Part shown: in pieces, positions 36,001-42,000 of the stretch
Layout of the letters: each line of letters starts with the position of its first letter
How positions within the stretch are numbered: position 1 is the first letter of the stretch
Origin: an uncultured Pseudomonadota bacterium
GTDB taxonomy: Bacteria > Pseudomonadota > Alphaproteobacteria > RF32 > CAG-239
Assembly: GCA_947054505.1 (NCBI GenBank)
Contig: CAMRWU010000001.1
Span: 30,464 to 94,463 of the forward strand
Direction: 5' to 3'
DNA length: 64,000 nt
Made by a program: the position numbers

Positions 36001-39000
36001 AAATCACATCCCCTTTTTTCAATTGCAACATCAAGCGTTTCCAAGCATCACTGATCGGGCTTTCCTTCGTAATCATCGGACGAGTTCCAAACTGGAATGC
36101 AATCGGACCGATTTCCGGATTATCAATATAATCTTGCCATTCGTTCAAAGACCAAATTCCACCGGCCAAAATAATCGGACGGTCATTCAACCCCAAATCA
36201 TTCATGGTTTTACGAAGTTCGACCAAACGAGCATACGGGGTCTGCGGTTGCAAAGGATCTTCGGCATTAGACAAACCGTTATGACCGCCCGCCAACCACG
36301 GATCCTCATAAACAACACCACCCAAAAACTCAACAAAGCGATTGTAAGCACGTTTCCACAAAACCTGAAAAGCACGAGCAGATGACACAATCGGATAGTA
36401 ATAAACACCAAACTTGGAAGCAATTTCTCCCAATCGATACGGCAAACCGGCACCACAAGTCACGCCGTTAATCAAACCTTTAGCGCGCTCCAATACACCG
36501 GTCAAAATCTGTTCGGAACCACCAAGTTCCCATAACATATTCATGTGAATACGACCGTTTCCTCCGGCAACCTCATGTGCGATTTGTGCTTGAGCAACAC
36601 CACCTTTGATTGACTGTTCAATCATTTCATTGTGGCGATCCTGACGGCTTTTCTTAAAATATTTTTCAAAAATGACATTACCGAAAGAATCATAATAGTC
36701 CGGACTGACACCTGAAAAAGTCCCGACGCAATTTTCATGAGCCCAAGCCCCGCTACTGCGTCCGTCACTGGCATTAATGCCTTTTCCGCCCTCAATAAGC
36801 GGATAGACTTCCTTTCCGGAAATCATAATCGGATTTAACTTTTTCAACTTTTTTTCCTTAAAATAAATAGTTTAAACCGCTATCATATATAGCACATCAA
36901 GGGGCTAAATCAAGCAAATTATTAGGGATGTCATTAACAGAAACCACGGCAATAACAATACATATAATTGCATATACCTGAAGCATTTCCGTCAGCATTT
37001 TGTTTTGCAACAGAGGAATATCTTTTTCATAGCGCTCAAACAACCGATGAATACCAAACATCACCAACACTGCCGCAATCGCCTGTATTCCCAATCCCGC
37101 AAAAGCCAGCTCACCCTTAAAAAAGCCCAAAATCCGGAACAAAAACGTAAATACCAAAAGATAAACAATCATTGCGCCGATACCGATATATTGCATTTTA
37201 TCATTTAATGCCTGACGCTCTTTCTTATTCTGTTCATTTTTTTCAACAGAAAGCTCCGTAACATCAATCCCTCTGATTGTCTCCGGCTTGCGAAATCTGT
37301 TTTTAATAGCAGCCATATCGGCGTAAAACTTTTCTTCGCTCATACATAAACCACAACCTTTCGCAGAAAAATAAACATGGTTGTGATTCTTTTTGCACGA
37401 ACGCAGATTATGCATCAGCTTCCATAAATGCTCCTGCCACTCATAGGCTGTCGGGCGTTTTCCTCCCTTAGTAAAAGCCCGTTCAAAAAGCTCCAAAGTT
37501 TCTCGGGCAAAGTACTCATGAATACTATACGGATGCGGCGCTTGATATTTGTCAGGCCACAAGCCGTAAGCATAATGATATTGCTCGATTCTGTTTTGAA
37601 TTGTCAGCATTTCATCATCATTTTTACGCGGAACACCGGAAAACGGATGGATTCCATTATTCAACAATTTAAAAATAATCACCGCCAACGCAAATTTATC
37701 CTGTTCTTCGCCCATATCGGCACAGGTTTTATCCATTCCTTCCGGATAAATATATTCCTCACTGACAAACTCTGCCGGATAACGAATATTCTCCCCCTGA
37801 ATGGAAAAACCGTCGCAATCCACCATCGCCACCAGCATATTCTCCTTATAAACCGACACGTTTGACGGTTTCAAATCAACAATATAATGCCCGCACTTGT
37901 GCAAAGAAGTCACCATTGAAGCAACATTATATGCAGCAAATATCCGATACGCATATTTTTCGGGAAGCCCTAGTTTCTGACGAATAGCCTTTTGCAACAA
38001 ATGGTCAAGAGACACCGCAGATTCCATATTTATCAACGGCATCAAATAACCGACACAAAAACCTTTTTCATCCTCCAAAACCGCTTCCGGCCACGCAATT
38101 TGCGTATAACAACGCCCCTCATTTTCCACCGGAGAAAAATTTGGCTTATTTAACAACATCGCTTCCAATTTCTGGCGATTGGTCTTGCTTTTGTTTCGAT
38201 TATGAAAAATCTTAGCAACATAATCAGGCTTATTTTCAACCAGATAAATTTTACCGGAAGCACCGCCCCGATTAATCAATCCCCCAAGCGCAACCTTGCC
38301 GAAAGAACCATCCGCATATACCGCATTATACGTCACATTCACATTTTCTTCCGGCATCATTGTACCTTTGCCCAAATCAACGTTTTGTCATCAGGATTCA
38401 ACTTCTGCGCCCGCGGCGTATTCAGCGTATTTGCCAAAGCTCTTGTCGCCCGACTTTTCATTTTTTCTTTACTCAAGAAATCATTAATCGGCAAAATAAA
38501 TCCTTTTTCAATTTCTCGATAATCCTTGCTGAAAGAAAACATCGTCAATCCATCGCTCATCAAAAACAGTGACTGCGCACCGTCAAAATTCGTAAACCGC
38601 AGATTCTCAGCCCAAGCCATCTGTGTAAAGAAAAATGTCTCGCAAGAAAAATCGCCGTTTGCCGGACGAGATGCCACAAAATCTCCGCCCTGATTATCTC
38701 TCAACGCAATTGCGGCCCCATCGCCGATATGAAAGAACACCCCTTTTCCTTGACGATAAACGACACCGACCACCGTTGCCGCAAAATCAGCCAATCCCAT
38801 CTCATTTTTGCTTTTGTTCATCCGATGACGGATTAACTTTTCTCGAGCAATTTTCAGAGCATGAACAACCGCTTGTTCAGCCTGTTCAAACGGACGATTC
38901 TTTACCAAGTCGCACAGCGTCGAACAAACCACTCTCGCACCTATTTTGCCAAACTTGGCTGATCCGGCTCCATCTGAAACCACCGCCACAAAATTACGAC

Positions 39001-42000
39001 CGGTTGCATGCTGAAAACAATCTTGGCACAACTGTTCGTTATGCTTATGCAAAGCACCGGTAACACTGGCGGCAACAACTTTTATGGACGACTGCTTATT
39101 CTTCATTCCATTCGCCAATATCTTCCAAAAGATCAGGAACATTCGGTGCCGCTTTAGAAACACAAGAGACGCTACGGCTTAACCACAGGAAAAACTCGGT
39201 AAAACGCAAACCGCTTAATCTCTTGGGACTGATTGTCGAAAACTTGGCCAACTTATCAAGGTTCGCCCCCTGTGTTCCAACCGCATGAATAACCACTTTT
39301 TTGTTTTGCTGAGCAAAACGACATTTCTCGGCAATAATCTCCCAATCATAATCCGTCGGTTCTCCGTCACTGATTAAAAAAATCCACGGACGTTTTGACG
39401 TCACTCCGCAACTGTCATACAAACACTTTTGTTCTTCAATCTTTTGCAAAGCCTTTTCCATCGCTTTTCCAAGTGGTGTCAACCCTCCGGCTTCCATTTC
39501 CGGTGCCTGAAAATTCATCGCATCAATCCAATCCGAGGCAATCACAGCTTCATCCTTGCCAAAAGCCTTGATAATCAATAACTGCACACGGGAACTGGCA
39601 TCAATATCTTCCTTAAGCTCCTTTTCCAAAGCCTTCAATCCGGCATTAAGCTGTTTTATCGGCTCTCCGCGCATCGACCCCGAACAATCCAAAACCAAAA
39701 CACATGGCGTGCGCTCATTGGCGTTATCGGCAAATTCCACATAAGGAATCATTTCCTGTTCTAAATCTTTATCTGCAATCATCTGTTTTCTCCAACCGGT
39801 TAATTACGTGGATACGAATGAGGATAACCACTGTCGGGATACGGTTCCGGCAAAGCATATTTACCACAAGCGGAAAGACTCATAACAACCGCAAGCATTG
39901 CCAATAAGAAAATTTTTTTCATATACCATTCCTTTACTTGTTTATGCTTATACTATAACCATATCAAAACAAGGGTTAAGTAAAATTTAAGTTATACAGA
40001 GGGAATATGTTAAAAAAATATACAGCACTTTTATTCATTGGAATTCTGTGTTTAACCGGCGTCAATGCTTCGGCTAAAGGCATAAACATTTTCGCCTACC
40101 CCAGAGAAGCACCGCAAACGCCGATTTACAATCCTTACGGCGGCGAAGTCAAATTAAGCGACTTCAAAGGCGACTTTGTTTTAGCGATTTTTTGGTCTCG
40201 TCACTGTGTTCCCTGCATCAGAGAACTCGACGACCTCAACAACTTCGTCCTCAAGACCAAAGACACCGGCATCAAAGCTATTTTAATTTCCAAAGCCGAA
40301 GAATGGAACAACGCCGAAGAACAACAAAAGTTCCTAAAAAAATTCAAAGCGCAAGACGTTGAATTCTTTGTCGACAAGAATGGAAAACTAACGGATGAAT
40401 TTGGCATTTTCACCTCCCCGCACACTGTTTTAATCAATAAAAAAGCGGAAGAAATCGGACGCATCAGAGGCTCTGTCGATTGGGACGATGAAGATGTTAT
40501 TGAATACGTTTATAAACTGAAATCAGAATACGGCAACGGAACAACAAACAATGACAAATAAACTCTACATTTCTTGGAATGAATTCCATCAAGACGTCAA
40601 AAATCTGGCGCAAAAAATAAAAGAACAAGGAAATTTCAACAGAATCATCGCTGTTAGTCGCGGCGGCCTGCTTCCTGCCGGTATTCTTTCTTACGAGCTG
40701 GATATCCGCCAATGCGAAAGCATTAACATTCAAACCTACGATGCCATGCAACAACGTGCGGCCGAAGACATTGTCGTTGATAACAAGCTTGAAAAAGCAA
40801 ATGCTCAAACACTGATTGTTGATGACTTGTCAGACAGCGGACAAACATTTCAAATTCTGCACAAACTGTTTCCGGAAGCTTGCCGTGTTGCTGTTTATGC
40901 CAAACCGAACGGAAAAAAAGACACGAACATTTTTGCTCGTGCCTTACCTGATCAATGGGTCGTTTTCCCGTGGGATATTGAATAGCTAAATATCAGAAAA
41001 CAAAGGCAATCCTTGAGCCATACGAATCATCTGTGTTTCGATGGCTGTTCCCAAGTTGAGCTTGCCGCTCTTGATGATACCGCGAACCTGATCCCCCTTA
41101 TTGGTGTTCGGATTGGCAAACAAATAAGAAACTTGCGGACGCTTAACCGTTGTACCGACCATAACCTGATGCAATGTGGCCAACATACTGCGAGAAAACA
41201 GGTCATAAGCCAATTCTTCACTCATATTTGCCGCCGTCGCATATTTCACAACCGAAGAAATCGCATCCGTAACATTGTTGGCATGTACGGTAGACAGCAC
41301 CAAGTGTCCGGATGTAGCTGCGCGTAAAACCTCACTGGCCGTATCCGGTGTACGAATCTCACCGACCAAAATATAACGCGGTTTAGAACGTAAAGCAGAC
41401 TTCAAAGAATCCCCCCATCGTCCTTCAAACGGAATTGTTTGTTTACATAATCCCAAGCTACCGTTTGCCGACTTATAAACACCATCCAGCGGCTGTTCGG
41501 TCGGATCTTCAATTGTATAAGCAAAACCGCCTTCTCGCAACAAATATTCCCGTAACAATGCTGAAACAGATGTTGTTTTACCGGCGCCGGTAGGACCTGA
41601 CCACAAAATCAATCCCGATGCCGGCGACAAACGCAACAAATAGGTTGTCAAATCATGACTATATCCCAAAGTCTGAAACGACGGTGTTTCTGCCGGCATT
41701 TTACGCAAGCAATATTGCGGACCATACAAAGTTTCACTTCGTTCCACACGATAAAACAACTTTTCATAAATCACGGAATAACTAGGGTTCTTGCCATCCC
41801 AACTTTTTTCCACGAGCTCAAAAAACTTTTCAAAATCGCTGGCTTCAAACAACATCAAACCACTGCGCGTATTTCCGTCCGGAATATACGCTTTTTTATC
41901 CGGCGTAATATAGATATCTGAAAATCTGGTTTCGGTAATAGTTGCCATGATGGCTCTCCTAAAAAATACAATTATCCCTAGGATAAAACAAATATCTTAA

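What the first reader, a model, noticed from the sequence alone, without database searches (positions are those of the whole stretch)
36897..39922. Translationally coupled module of a small lipoprotein, a vWA protein, a PP2C phosphatase and a membrane Ser/Thr kinase (TerY-P triad-like)
Four same-strand genes lie in order. They are a 40-aa lipoprotein (MKKIFLLAMLAVVMSLSAC..), a vWA protein with an intact MIDAS motif (DCSGSM), a PP2C phosphatase (VSDGAGS metal site) and a eukaryotic-like Ser/Thr kinase with a CxxC..CxxC cluster and two C-terminal TM helices. The vWA stop overlaps the PP2C start by 11 nt (ATGAAGAATAA). The PP2C stop overlaps the kinase MMPEE start in a classic ATGA, implying stoichiometric co-expression. 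This gene order matches the TerY-P triad predicted bioinformatically (Aravind group) to be a phosphorylation-switched signalling or defence module. As far as I know it has not been functionally characterised, and here it occurs without any ter genes. Alternatively it may be a host-interaction signalling unit.
Basis: partly seen in the sequence, partly recalled or inferred. Interest (0 to 1): 0.7.

Follow-up and report, generated by a model that had tools for sequence, protein, structure and literature searches.

The report
Conserved vWA–phosphatase–kinase operon with lipoprotein
This is a real four-gene operon of a known but poorly understood signalling family (the TerY-P or YegL/PphC/YegI triad); in uncultured gut Alphaproteobacteria it is a fixed, strongly conserved chromosomal operon with an extra tiny lipoprotein gene, which fits routine cell signalling better than mobile phage defence.

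Summary
On the minus strand lie a 40-aa lipoprotein, a 228-aa vWA/MIDAS protein, a 249-aa PP2C and a 487-aa Ser/Thr kinase. The overlaps are 11 nt (vWA/PP2C) and ATGA (PP2C/kinase). Two details need correcting. The kinase metal site is C-x5-H-x7-C-x2-C, not CxxC..CxxC. There are three C-terminal hydrophobic helices, not two.

All three large proteins are homologs of E. coli YegL (42% identity), PphC and YegI, so this is a TerY-P triad of the zinc-site-kinase type. The family is not uncharacterised. PphC and YegI are biochemically active, and a TerY-P-like variant defends against phage.

What is new is the context. The same lipoprotein–vWA–PP2C–kinase order was found in all 71 related species-level gut/rumen alphaproteobacterial genomes recovered. 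It sits among housekeeping genes with no defence or mobile neighbours. The vWA protein is the most constrained gene in the neighbourhood (median 88% identity; dN/dS 0.008). The lipoprotein has an invariant SGYPH(S/T)YP motif, is specific to this lineage and is absent from outgroup triads.

Best reading: a vertically inherited membrane phospho-switch, with the lipoprotein as a possible envelope input. It is a new variant of a known kind, of moderate interest.

The parts
39952..39979 (-). Sigma-70-like promoter candidate (TTAACC-16-TATAGT) upstream of the lipoprotein gene. It lies in the 84-nt divergent intergenic region shared with the redoxin gene.
   Evidence: Consensus scan only (9/12 matches). 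Weak evidence.
39800..39922 (-). Small lipoprotein gene (40 aa). It encodes a signal peptide, the lipobox LSAC, and a ~21-aa mature peptide CGKYALPEPYPDSGYPHSYPRN containing the lineage-invariant SGYPH(S/T)YP motif.
   Evidence: Present 3-28 nt upstream of the vWA gene in 70 of 71 loci; the exception is cut by a contig end. A lipobox Cys is present in 69 of 69 distinct genes, and motif residues show synonymous codon turnover. Database hits come only from the same lineage. Absent upstream of outgroup triads. No Pfam family.
39096..39782 (-). TerY/YegL-type cytoplasmic vWA protein (228 aa). It has a complete MIDAS (D32-x-S34-x-S36 in DCSGSM, T102 in GGLTPLG, D139 in SDGEPTD), a conserved Ser-rich C-terminal segment (WLSRSVSCVSK) and a disordered acidic tail.
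   Evidence: Pfam VWA. 42% identity to E. coli YegL, E=6e-49. AF2 pLDDT 78 with a canonical vWA fold. Median 88% identity across 70 loci, the highest in the neighbourhood. dN/dS 0.008. No TM segment. The Ser-rich segment is conserved through to YegL.
38357..39106 (-). PP2C-type Ser/Thr phosphatase (249 aa). Its start overlaps the vWA stop by 11 nt.
   Evidence: Pfam PP2C_2 E=2.5e-35. 24% identity to E. coli PphC, E=1e-12, with the metal-site Asp (PphC D46) conserved. The overlap is conserved in 71 of 72 loci.
36897..38360 (-). YegI-type membrane Ser/Thr kinase (487 aa). Layout: N-terminal kinase domain (K50, D162, N167, D181/D183), a CHCC metal site (C322, H328, C336, C339), a linker, three hydrophobic helices, and a conserved 12-aa C-terminal tail. 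Its start overlaps the PP2C stop (ATGA).
   Evidence: Pfam Pkinase. 27% identity over 323 aa to YegI, E=5e-31. Invariant residues in a 22-sequence family alignment. Hydropathy. AF2 helices. This full-length architecture is confined to the lineage.
35459..36847 (-). FabX-like FMN enzyme gene ('NMO-like', 462 aa), 49 nt downstream of the kinase. It is probably co-transcribed but is not a constant member of the module.
   Evidence: Pfam NMO. Best PDB relatives are 7e1q and related entries, which are H. pylori FabX. Follows the kinase in 57 of 74 loci and is absent in one subclade, where a convergent gene abuts the kinase. No terminator-like site lies between the kinase and this gene.
35419..35460 (-). 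Terminator-like hairpin (18 pairs plus a T-run) just after the FabX-like gene; the likely end of the transcription unit.
   Evidence: pattern scan only.
40007..40561 (+). Divergently transcribed TlpA/ResA-like periplasmic thiol:disulfide oxidoreductase. It is a constant neighbour of the operon in this lineage, and whether it is functionally linked is unknown.
   Evidence: Pfam Redoxin/AhpC-TSA. NCBIfam TlpA/ResA below cut-off. Adjacent and divergent in 68 of 68 loci that have upstream sequence. Not present next to outgroup triads.

Best explanation
This is a chromosomal, vertically inherited TerY-P phosphorylation triad of the YegL/PphC/YegI type. In one lineage of uncultured gut and rumen Alphaproteobacteria it is extended by a small lipoprotein.

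Proposed mechanism:
1. The kinase is anchored in the inner membrane by three C-terminal helices. Its kinase domain and CHCC metal site face the cytoplasm, and only a very short loop and a conserved 12-residue tail face the periplasm.
2. The kinase is activated by autophosphorylation, as shown for E. coli YegI.
3. The PP2C, translated in a fixed ratio through overlapping stop/start codons, resets the kinase, as shown for PphC acting on YegI.
4. The output is the cytoplasmic TerY-like vWA protein. Its MIDAS site binds a partner in a metal-dependent way. Its conserved Ser-rich C-terminal segment is the most likely phospho-acceptor.
5. The ~21-residue lipopeptide (SGYPH(S/T)YP) supplies or modulates the envelope-side input. 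The kinase has no sensor domain of its own, whereas outgroup kinases carry large variable C-terminal domains.

What is shown here: gene anatomy, homology, intact catalytic and metal residues, predicted topology, conserved operon structure and strong purifying selection.

What is shown elsewhere for homologs: kinase and phosphatase activity, and membrane insertion.

What is inferred: the vWA protein as substrate or output, the lipoprotein as input, and a housekeeping rather than defence role.
For: Homology and motifs:
- Homology to YegL, PphC and YegI.
- Pfam domains.
- Invariant K50, D162, D181, D183 and C322/H328/C336/C339 across diverse family members.
- PP2C metal-site Asp aligned to PphC D46.
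- MIDAS residues and the Ser-rich WLSxS..S(K/R) segment conserved from this lineage to E. coli.

Anatomy:
- Three hydrophobic helices that obey the positive-inside rule.

Conservation and selection:
- The operon order lipo-vWA-PP2C-kinase holds in every one of 71 species-level genomes with enough sequence. The vWA/PP2C overlap is kept in 71 of 72 loci. PP2C/kinase spacing ranges from -22 to +12 nt.
- The vWA protein is the most conserved gene locally, with a median of 88% identity against 55-71% for MurI, PilT-like, redoxin and PRT.
- dN/dS is 0.008-0.063 for all four genes.

The lipoprotein:
- It is under protein-level selection.
- It is confined to the lineage.
- It is present even in the most divergent member, L078.
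- It is absent from outgroup triads, whose kinases have long variable C-termini.

Context:
- The surroundings are housekeeping, with no defence or mobile genes near the operon.
- There are no PADLOC TerY-P matches.

Literature:
- 10.1101/819920: YegI is active, is a membrane protein and shows second-order activation.
- 10.1101/303594: PphC dephosphorylates YegI.
- PMC11090510: definition of TerY-P.
Against: - No experiment exists for this lineage, and all members are metagenome-assembled genomes.
- No TerY/YegL protein has been shown to be a substrate of its kinase, even in E. coli, and the physiological role there is still unknown (PMC13232886).
- Conserved synteny within one lineage is partly shared ancestry, so lipoprotein adjacency alone does not prove a functional link.
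- Residue +2 of the mature lipoprotein is Gly in 66 of 69 genes. Under E. coli sorting rules (my own knowledge) this would send it to the outer membrane, away from an inner-membrane kinase.
- The AF2 kinase model is poor in the C-lobe.
- A conserved, chromosomally fixed defence system cannot be excluded.
Confidence: 0.55

Rival explanations
1. It is an anti-phage defence system of the TerY-P kind. Infection is sensed, the kinase/phosphatase switch flips, and the vWA protein triggers growth arrest or blocks the phage.
For: The family relationship to TerY-P is established. TerY-P-like modules were reported to protect against T7-like phages (Gao et al. 2020, as cited in PMC7699616 and PMC11090510). 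TerY-P triads are embedded in CoCoNuT restriction systems. The kinase gives weak PADLOC hits to the PD-T4-6 kinase models.
Against: PADLOC's TerY model scores only 14.7 bits, and the PP2C and kinase hit no TerY-P models; the E. coli triad behaves the same way. The validated variant has an OB-fold on the kinase, whereas this one has TM helices. The operon holds a fixed position among housekeeping genes in 71 species, with no neighbouring defence, nuclease, helicase or mobile genes. dN/dS of 0.008 on the vWA protein is unlike the patchy, fast-evolving pattern typical of defence islands (general knowledge).
Confidence: 0.15
2. It regulates type IV pili or another surface filament. This would parallel the archaeal ArnA/ArnB pair, a vWA protein controlled by Ser/Thr kinases that regulates the archaellum.
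For: A PilT-like ATPase (40986-41948) lies beside the block in 40 of 74 loci. It stays adjacent even though the block is inverted relative to it in some genomes. Pilin, T2SSF and T2SSE genes adjoin the block in L001-L003. A prepilin peptidase lies at 47901-48674. The only sequence-level PDB hit for the vWA protein is ArnB in 8s05, which is also among the top fold matches.
Against: Many lineage members have no PilT-like gene within the retrieved flanks. Outgroup triads and the E. coli locus are not next to pilus genes. The ArnB hit is weak (E=0.0029, 21% identity) and reflects the shared vWA fold. The regulation of ArnB by kinases is from my own memory, not from a paper read here.
Confidence: 0.1
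3. It is a metal or tellurite stress sensor, as originally proposed for TerY-P. In this reading the vWA MIDAS site and the kinase zinc site read out metal status.
For: The MIDAS and CHCC metal sites are intact. PMC11090510 cites Anantharaman et al. 2012 for a metal-sensing, phosphorylation-dependent switch. The conserved His and Tyr residues in the lipopeptide could bind metal (inference).
Against: No TerB/C/D/Z or other ter domains occur in the 64-kb window. No metal transporter is linked to the operon. MIDAS sites usually mediate protein binding rather than metal sensing (general knowledge).
Confidence: 0.1
4. The lipoprotein gene is an unrelated small envelope lipoprotein, for example a diverged LptM-like protein. 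It would then be syntenic only, so the functional unit is just the classical three-gene triad.
For: Weak NCBIfam hit to SS_mature_LptM (E=0.0015, 18.6 bits, below the 27.7 cut-off), covering only residues 1-20. Gly at +2 suggests outer-membrane sorting (plus my own knowledge). Outgroup triads work without it. Other neighbours such as the redoxin gene are equally syntenic.
Against: It lies on the same strand only 3-28 nt from the vWA start in essentially all species. Block inversions and the loss of flanking genes never separate it from the triad. Its appearance coincides with a kinase that lacks any extracytoplasmic domain. The LptM hit covers the signal peptide only, and the SGYPHSYP motif has no match.
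Confidence: 0.3

Closest known systems
E. coli YegL-PphC(YegK)-YegI module
   Same: All three proteins are homologous: 42% to YegL, 24% to PphC and 27% to YegI, with E=6e-49, 1e-12 and 5e-31. The gene order is vWA, PP2C, kinase. The kinase has an N-terminal cytoplasmic catalytic domain, the same C..H..CxxC site, and then membrane helices without an extracytoplasmic sensor domain. No ter genes lie nearby.
   Different: YegI is 648 aa, with two TM helices and a large cytoplasmic C-terminal region; this kinase is 487 aa and ends in three helices and a 12-residue tail. This kinase keeps the canonical D-L-K-P-x-N catalytic loop that YegI has lost. E. coli has no upstream lipoprotein gene. In E. coli the locus is variable between strains and is barely expressed (10.1101/303594; PMC13232886), whereas here it is fixed and highly constrained.
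TerY-P triad as defined by Anantharaman, Iyer and Aravind 2012 and found in Type II/III-A CoCoNuT systems
   Same: A TerY-like vWA protein, a PP2C, and an STK with a zinc-binding module after the kinase domain, encoded as a co-directional triad.
   Different: There is no association with McrBC/CoCoNuT, helicase, nuclease, FtsK/WXG100 or ter genes. The operon has a housekeeping chromosomal context and an added lipoprotein gene, and the kinase ends in membrane helices.
TerY-P defence system of Gao et al. 2020 (PADLOC/DefenseFinder 'TerY-P')
   Same: The same three domain types in one operon.
   Different: The validated kinase carries a C-terminal OB-fold (PMC11090510). The PADLOC models do not recognise the window proteins (TerY 14.7 bits; nothing for the PP2C or kinase).
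Archaeal ArnA/ArnB (PDB 8s05)
   Same: A cytoplasmic vWA protein. It is the only sequence-level PDB hit and is among the top structural matches. It works like a vWA adaptor under Ser/Thr kinase and phosphatase control (own knowledge).
   Different: The relationship is very distant (21% identity) and reflects the shared fold only. There is no FHA/zinc-ribbon partner here, the domain of life differs, and the operon is not homologous.

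Membership tests
TerY-P phosphorylation triad (YegL/PphC/YegI type) | TerY/YegL-type vWA protein with an intact MIDAS | tested here: met
   Pfam VWA above cut-off. 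42% identity over the full length to E. coli YegL. DxSGS, T and D MIDAS residues conserved. JGI names relatives 'uncharacterized protein YegL'.
TerY-P phosphorylation triad (YegL/PphC/YegI type) | Adjacent PP2C-family phosphatase with metal-binding aspartates | tested here: met
   PP2C_2 E=2.5e-35. Homology to PphC, with the D46 equivalent present.
TerY-P phosphorylation triad (YegL/PphC/YegI type) | Adjacent Ser/Thr kinase with catalytic Lys and Asp | tested here: met
   Pkinase E=1.5e-10. K50, D162 and D181/D183 invariant in the family alignment. Homology to YegI. Enzyme activity itself could not be tested here.
TerY-P phosphorylation triad (YegL/PphC/YegI type) | Zinc-ribbon-like module immediately after the kinase domain | tested here: met
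   C322-x5-H328-x7-C336-x2-C339 is invariant in 22 diverse members including YegI. Zinc binding was not tested, and the AF2 model is weak in this region.
TerY-P phosphorylation triad (YegL/PphC/YegI type) | Co-directional operon in the order vWA, PP2C, kinase | tested here: met
   Window; 71 lineage genomes; three outgroup loci; E. coli.
Gao et al. 2020 TerY-P anti-phage system | Proteins recognised by the PADLOC TerY-P models | tested here: not met
   TerY model 14.7 bits, E=0.0041, partial. No TerY-P phosphatase or kinase model hit even at E<=1.
Gao et al. 2020 TerY-P anti-phage system | Kinase fused at the C-terminus to an OB-fold | tested here: not met
   The C-terminus consists of three hydrophobic helices and a short tail. 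The feature definition comes from PMC11090510.
Gao et al. 2020 TerY-P anti-phage system | Confers phage resistance | not testable with these tools
   Requires heterologous expression and phage challenge.
ter (tellurite resistance) operon-associated TerY | Linkage to terZABCDE or TerB/TerC/TerD domain genes | tested here: not met
   No Ter domains in any large ORF of the 64-kb window. The rest of the genome was not seen.
Receptor-type bacterial Ser/Thr kinases (PknB/PrkC-like) | Single TM helix followed by an extracytoplasmic sensor domain (PASTA or similar) | tested here: not met
   No domain follows the TM helices, and no Pfam hit other than Pkinase passes its cut-off.
LptM (YifL) small lipoprotein | Match to the NCBIfam SS_mature_LptM model above its cut-off, including the mature region | tested here: not met
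   18.6 bits against a 27.7 cut-off, and only residues 1-20 (signal peptide) aligned. No Pfam hit.

The most novel reading that the evidence does not exclude
The ~21-residue SGYPH(S/T)YP lipopeptide is a dedicated periplasmic co-receptor for a sensor-less YegI-type kinase. This would turn the classical three-gene TerY-P triad into a four-component envelope-to-cytoplasm signalling system. That system would be a core, possibly essential, function of a whole order of reduced-genome gut Alphaproteobacteria. Its hyper-conserved vWA output would dock through its MIDAS site onto a central cellular machine. If true, this would give the first physiological (non-defence) role and the first input signal for the TerY-P/YegLKI family.
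Probability: 0.2. Interest if true: 0.65.

Novelty: new variant of a known kind. Interest (0 to 1): 0.42.

Why it matters
TerY-P/YegLKI triads are widespread. The kinase family alone has more than 5,000 clusters at 50% identity with E<=1e-10. They have been enzymatically characterised in E. coli and are linked to phage defence in one variant, yet no physiological signal, substrate or role is known. This lineage offers a version that is fixed, strongly constrained and set among housekeeping genes. It also has a candidate input component (the lipoprotein) and a candidate phospho-acceptor segment on the vWA protein. That argues the family is not only a defence accessory, and it yields concrete testable predictions. 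It is also a caution against annotating every vWA-PP2C-kinase triad as an anti-phage system.

Tried and rejected
- **PADLOC**, at default and permissive thresholds. There were no meaningful TerY-P hits for the window triad or for the E. coli control, so automated defence annotation gives no support.
- **PDB sequence searches.** The kinase had no hit. The vWA protein had only a marginal ArnB hit. No solved close relative is available for inferring mechanism.
- **AF2 model of the kinase.** Mean pLDDT was 63 and the C-lobe was below 50. This is too poor for a fold search, so none was run on it.
- **The original TerY-P paper** (PMC4104200) is not held. The family definition was taken from PMC11090510 and PMC4978471 instead.
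- **LptM identity for the lipoprotein.** Rejected as a membership claim, because the hit is below cut-off and covers the signal peptide only.
- **FabX-like gene as a fifth module component.** Rejected as a core part, because it is absent in a whole subclade and belongs to a fatty-acid enzyme family.
- **Defence island or mobile element context.** Rejected after annotating the whole window.
- **dN/dS with more distant relatives.** Synonymous sites were saturated, so only the L005 comparison is quoted.
- **Lipoprotein homolog search.** Sensitivity is limited for a 40-aa query, and small ORFs are often not called, so absence outside the lineage is not proven. The genome scan used exact 8-residue peptides from the query, so 71 species is a lower bound.

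Full report
**Observation.** The region 36897-39922 carries four consecutive ORFs on the minus strand.
- A 40-aa ORF at 39800-39922 (MKKIFLLAMLAVVMSLSAC...).
- A 228-aa ORF at 39096-39782.
- A 249-aa ORF from the ATG at 39106 down to 38357.
- A 487-aa ORF from the ATG at 38360 down to 36897.

Reading the sequence confirms both junctions. The vWA stop and PP2C start overlap in ATGAAGAATAA (11 nt). The PP2C stop TGA lies inside ATGATG at the kinase start, giving a 4-nt ATGA overlap with the first ATG and a 1-nt overlap with the second.

Pfam confirms VWA (E=1.2e-6), PP2C_2 (E=2.5e-35) and Pkinase (E=1.5e-10), each above its gathering score.

- In a 22-sequence alignment spanning the family, including E. 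coli YegI, the invariant post-kinase residues are C322, H328, C336 and C339. The motif is therefore C-x5-H-x7-C-x2-C, not CxxC..CxxC.
- Hydropathy finds three hydrophobic segments, at 389-413, 416-441 and 458-476. The AlphaFold model gives three confident long helices at 372-405, 415-444 and 454-475. So there are three, not two.

With the positive-inside rule, this predicts a cytoplasmic N-terminus, a minimal first periplasmic loop, a ~20-residue cytoplasmic loop, and a 12-residue periplasmic C-terminal tail. That topology is an inference.

**What it is.** Direct BLASTP against the E. coli K-12 yeg locus (fetched) gave:
- vWA versus YegL: 42% identity over the full length, E=6e-49.
- PP2C versus PphC/YegK: 24%, E=1e-12. 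The Asp of VSDGAGS aligns with PphC D46.
- Kinase versus YegI: 27% over 323 residues, E=5e-31. The alignment runs through the kinase domain into the Cys/His site.

The triad is therefore a member of the family known as the TerY-phosphorylation (TerY-P) triad. [quoted passage not shown]

An exhaustive HMMER search shows the kinase-plus-CHCC region (residues ~10-345) in 5,329 clusters at E<=1e-10. Their total lengths range from 435 to 1145 aa and their C-termini vary. The full-length 487-aa architecture collapses into essentially one 50% cluster.

Three outgroup loci with kinases 44-46% identical all show VWA, PP2C_2 and kinase in the same order with abutting or overlapping genes.

**What is already known.**
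- E. coli PphC is an active Mn-dependent PP2C-like phosphatase that dephosphorylates YegI (bioRxiv 10.1101/303594).
- YegI is an active Ser/Thr kinase. It autophosphorylates with second-order kinetics and is a two-pass inner-membrane protein with both termini in the cytoplasm and no extracytoplasmic sensor domain (bioRxiv 10.1101/819920).
- TerY-P-like modules whose kinase carries an OB-fold instead of the zinc ribbon act as stand-alone anti-phage systems (Gao et al. 2020, as described in PMC11090510 and PMC7699616).
- The physiological role of the E. coli module is still unknown, and no inducing condition has been found (PMC13232886).

Absence of ter genes is not unusual, because the E. coli locus has none either.

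**Distribution and context.** A scan of species-representative genomes recovered 71 distinct loci. All come from uncultured gut or rumen Alphaproteobacteria from human, deer, sheep, yak, rabbit and mouse samples, and they include 'Proteobacteria bacterium CAG:495'. From memory I believe this is GTDB order RF32; that was not tested here.

Synteny across these loci:
- In every locus with enough sequence the order is redoxin(-) | lipoprotein, vWA, PP2C, kinase (+).
- The lipoprotein is present in 70 of 71 loci, and the exception is cut by a contig end.
- The redoxin gene is present in 68 of 68 loci that have upstream sequence.

Junction geometry:
- The vWA/PP2C overlap is kept in 71 of 72 loci, and is 11 nt in 43 of them.
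- PP2C-to-kinase spacing is -22 to +12 nt.
- Lipoprotein-to-vWA spacing is mostly 3-28 nt.

Other neighbours:
- The downstream 'NMO-like' gene follows in 57 of 74 loci. It is missing in one subclade, where a convergent gene abuts the kinase stop. Its closest solved relatives are H. pylori FabX, the FMN/[4Fe-4S] decanoyl-ACP dehydrogenase/isomerase. I treat it as a co-transcribed passenger, not a module part.
- A PilT-like ATPase is next to the block in 40 loci. It lies on different sides in different genomes, consistent with inversion of the whole block as a unit.

The rest of the 64-kb window is ordinary housekeeping: pntAB, truA, murI, groEL, fabZ, lpxD, bamA, rseP, murJ, topA, frr and pyrH. 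There are no Ter domains and no defence or mobile genes near the operon. GC content is uniform across the window.

PADLOC gives only a 14.7-bit partial hit to its TerY model and nothing for the phosphatase. The E. coli triad behaves the same way.

**Constraint.** Median amino-acid identity to the window across the lineage:

| Gene | Median identity |
|---|---|
| vWA protein | 88% |
| FabX-like enzyme | 81% |
| PilT-like ATPase | 71% |
| MurI | 71% |
| Kinase | 69% |
| PP2C | 61% |
| Redoxin | 55% |
| Phosphoribosyltransferase | 55% |

dN/dS against the closest relative, L005, the only pair without saturated synonymous sites:

| Gene | dN/dS |
|---|---|
| vWA | 0.008 |
| FabX-like | 0.009 |
| Kinase | 0.037 |
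| PP2C | 0.053 |
| Lipoprotein | 0.063 |

The vWA protein is also the best-conserved component in outgroups, at 53-60% identity against 36-38% for the PP2C.

Its AlphaFold model (pLDDT 78) is a canonical vWA fold with a disordered acidic tail at residues 207-228. The nearest structures are generic MIDAS-type vWA domains (CMG2/TEM8, Rpn10, TFIIH p44) and the archaeal ArnB. ArnB was also the only sequence-level PDB hit.

Besides the MIDAS residues, a Ser-rich segment at the end of the last helix is conserved from this lineage to E. coli YegL. It reads WLSRSVSCVSK here and WLSSSLRSVSR in YegL. I propose it as the phospho-acceptor; this is inference.

**The lipoprotein.**
- All 69 distinct gene versions encode a signal peptide with a lipobox Cys. 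The mature peptide is 21-29 residues with the consensus C-G-K-x-[SA]-x-P-x-P-x3-S-G-Y-P-H-[ST]-Y-P.
- The invariant residues are encoded by all four Gly codons, all four Pro codons and both Tyr and His codons. The conservation is therefore at the protein level.
- The most divergent lineage member (kinase 58% identical) also has it.
- A database search found it only in this lineage.
- Outgroup triads have no such ORF upstream, and neither does E. coli.
- It has no Pfam family. A weak NCBIfam LptM hit covers only the signal peptide and is below the cut-off.

The lipoprotein appears in the same lineage whose kinase has lost any C-terminal domain and kept only membrane helices and a conserved short tail. 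This suggests, but does not prove, that it supplies the envelope-side input. Gly at position +2 in 66 of 69 genes would predict outer-membrane sorting under E. coli rules (own knowledge). That is a point against direct contact with an inner-membrane kinase.

**Verdict.** The interpretation as TerY-P-like is right, but the claim of no characterisation is outdated, and the defence reading is not favoured by context.

The best-supported explanation is a vertically inherited, membrane-anchored Ser/Thr phospho-switch. The kinase and the PP2C are made in a fixed ratio by translational coupling. The switch controls a hyper-conserved TerY-like vWA/MIDAS adaptor. A lineage-specific lipopeptide is a candidate input.

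It is a new variant of a known kind. Interest is moderate, because it offers a tractable, non-defence setting for a family whose physiological role is still open. Nothing here is categorically new.

Noticed in passing
window 35459-36847 (-): The gene downstream of the kinase, which Pfam calls NMO-like, is most similar among solved structures to H. pylori FabX, the FMN/[4Fe-4S] enzyme of unsaturated fatty acid synthesis. It is ~90 aa longer than FabX, and the match covers residues 4-303 only. Its C-terminus has its own Cys cluster (CVGCLSQCQ...C). It is very conserved (median 81% identity, dN/dS 0.009) but absent from this position in one subclade.
   Followed up: partly
window 35034-35110 and 35203-35279; also 50460-50492: A 77-nt direct repeat (96% identity, 169 nt apart). 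Each copy holds the last ~19 nt of tRNA-Ser(GGA) plus its terminator hairpin, so the tRNA 3' end is duplicated downstream of the gene, like an att-site scar. The adjacent 256-aa ORF with no Pfam hit (34163-34933) is found only in the closest relative (L005), which points to a small variable or integration spot. A similar hairpin follows the other tRNA-Ser(CGA).
   Followed up: partly
window 40986-41948 (-); L001 11277-17458: A short (320 aa) PilT/T2SSE-like ATPase stays next to the redoxin-to-FabX block in 40 of 74 loci. It lies on opposite sides in different genomes, as if the seven-gene block inverted as a unit. In L001-L003 it adjoins a type IVb-like pilus cluster (bundlin/PilS pilins, T2SSF, T2SSE). 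A prepilin peptidase is at window 47901-48674.
   Followed up: partly
window 40007-40561 (+): A TlpA/ResA-like periplasmic thiol:disulfide oxidoreductase is divergently paired with the lipoprotein gene in all 68 loci that have upstream sequence. The two share an ~84-nt intergenic region, so co-regulation is possible but untested.
   Followed up: no
window 23040-26471 (-): A VirD4/TraG-type type IV secretion coupling protein (771 aa) lies next to a 368-aa pentapeptide-repeat protein, within otherwise housekeeping DNA. No other T4SS components were identified among the ORFs scanned.
   Followed up: no
window 6590-8827 (-), 26543-28312 (-), 3287-3910 (-): Three sizeable ORFs (745, 589 and 207 aa) have no Pfam match at E<=1e-4.
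   Followed up: no
whole window: GC skew is strongly and uniformly negative (about -0.2 to -0.28 over most 2-kb bins), and most genes are on the minus strand. This suggests the window lies within one replichore with strong strand bias.
   Followed up: no
alignment A1, proteins P0128, P0130, P0152: Outgroup YegI-type kinases carry very different C-terminal regions after the membrane segment. These include long repeat-rich regions (Sel1/ankyrin-like by eye) and a LysM-like segment, so the family seems to swap sensor or adaptor modules on a constant kinase-CHCC core. The domain assignments were not checked with profiles.
   Followed up: no
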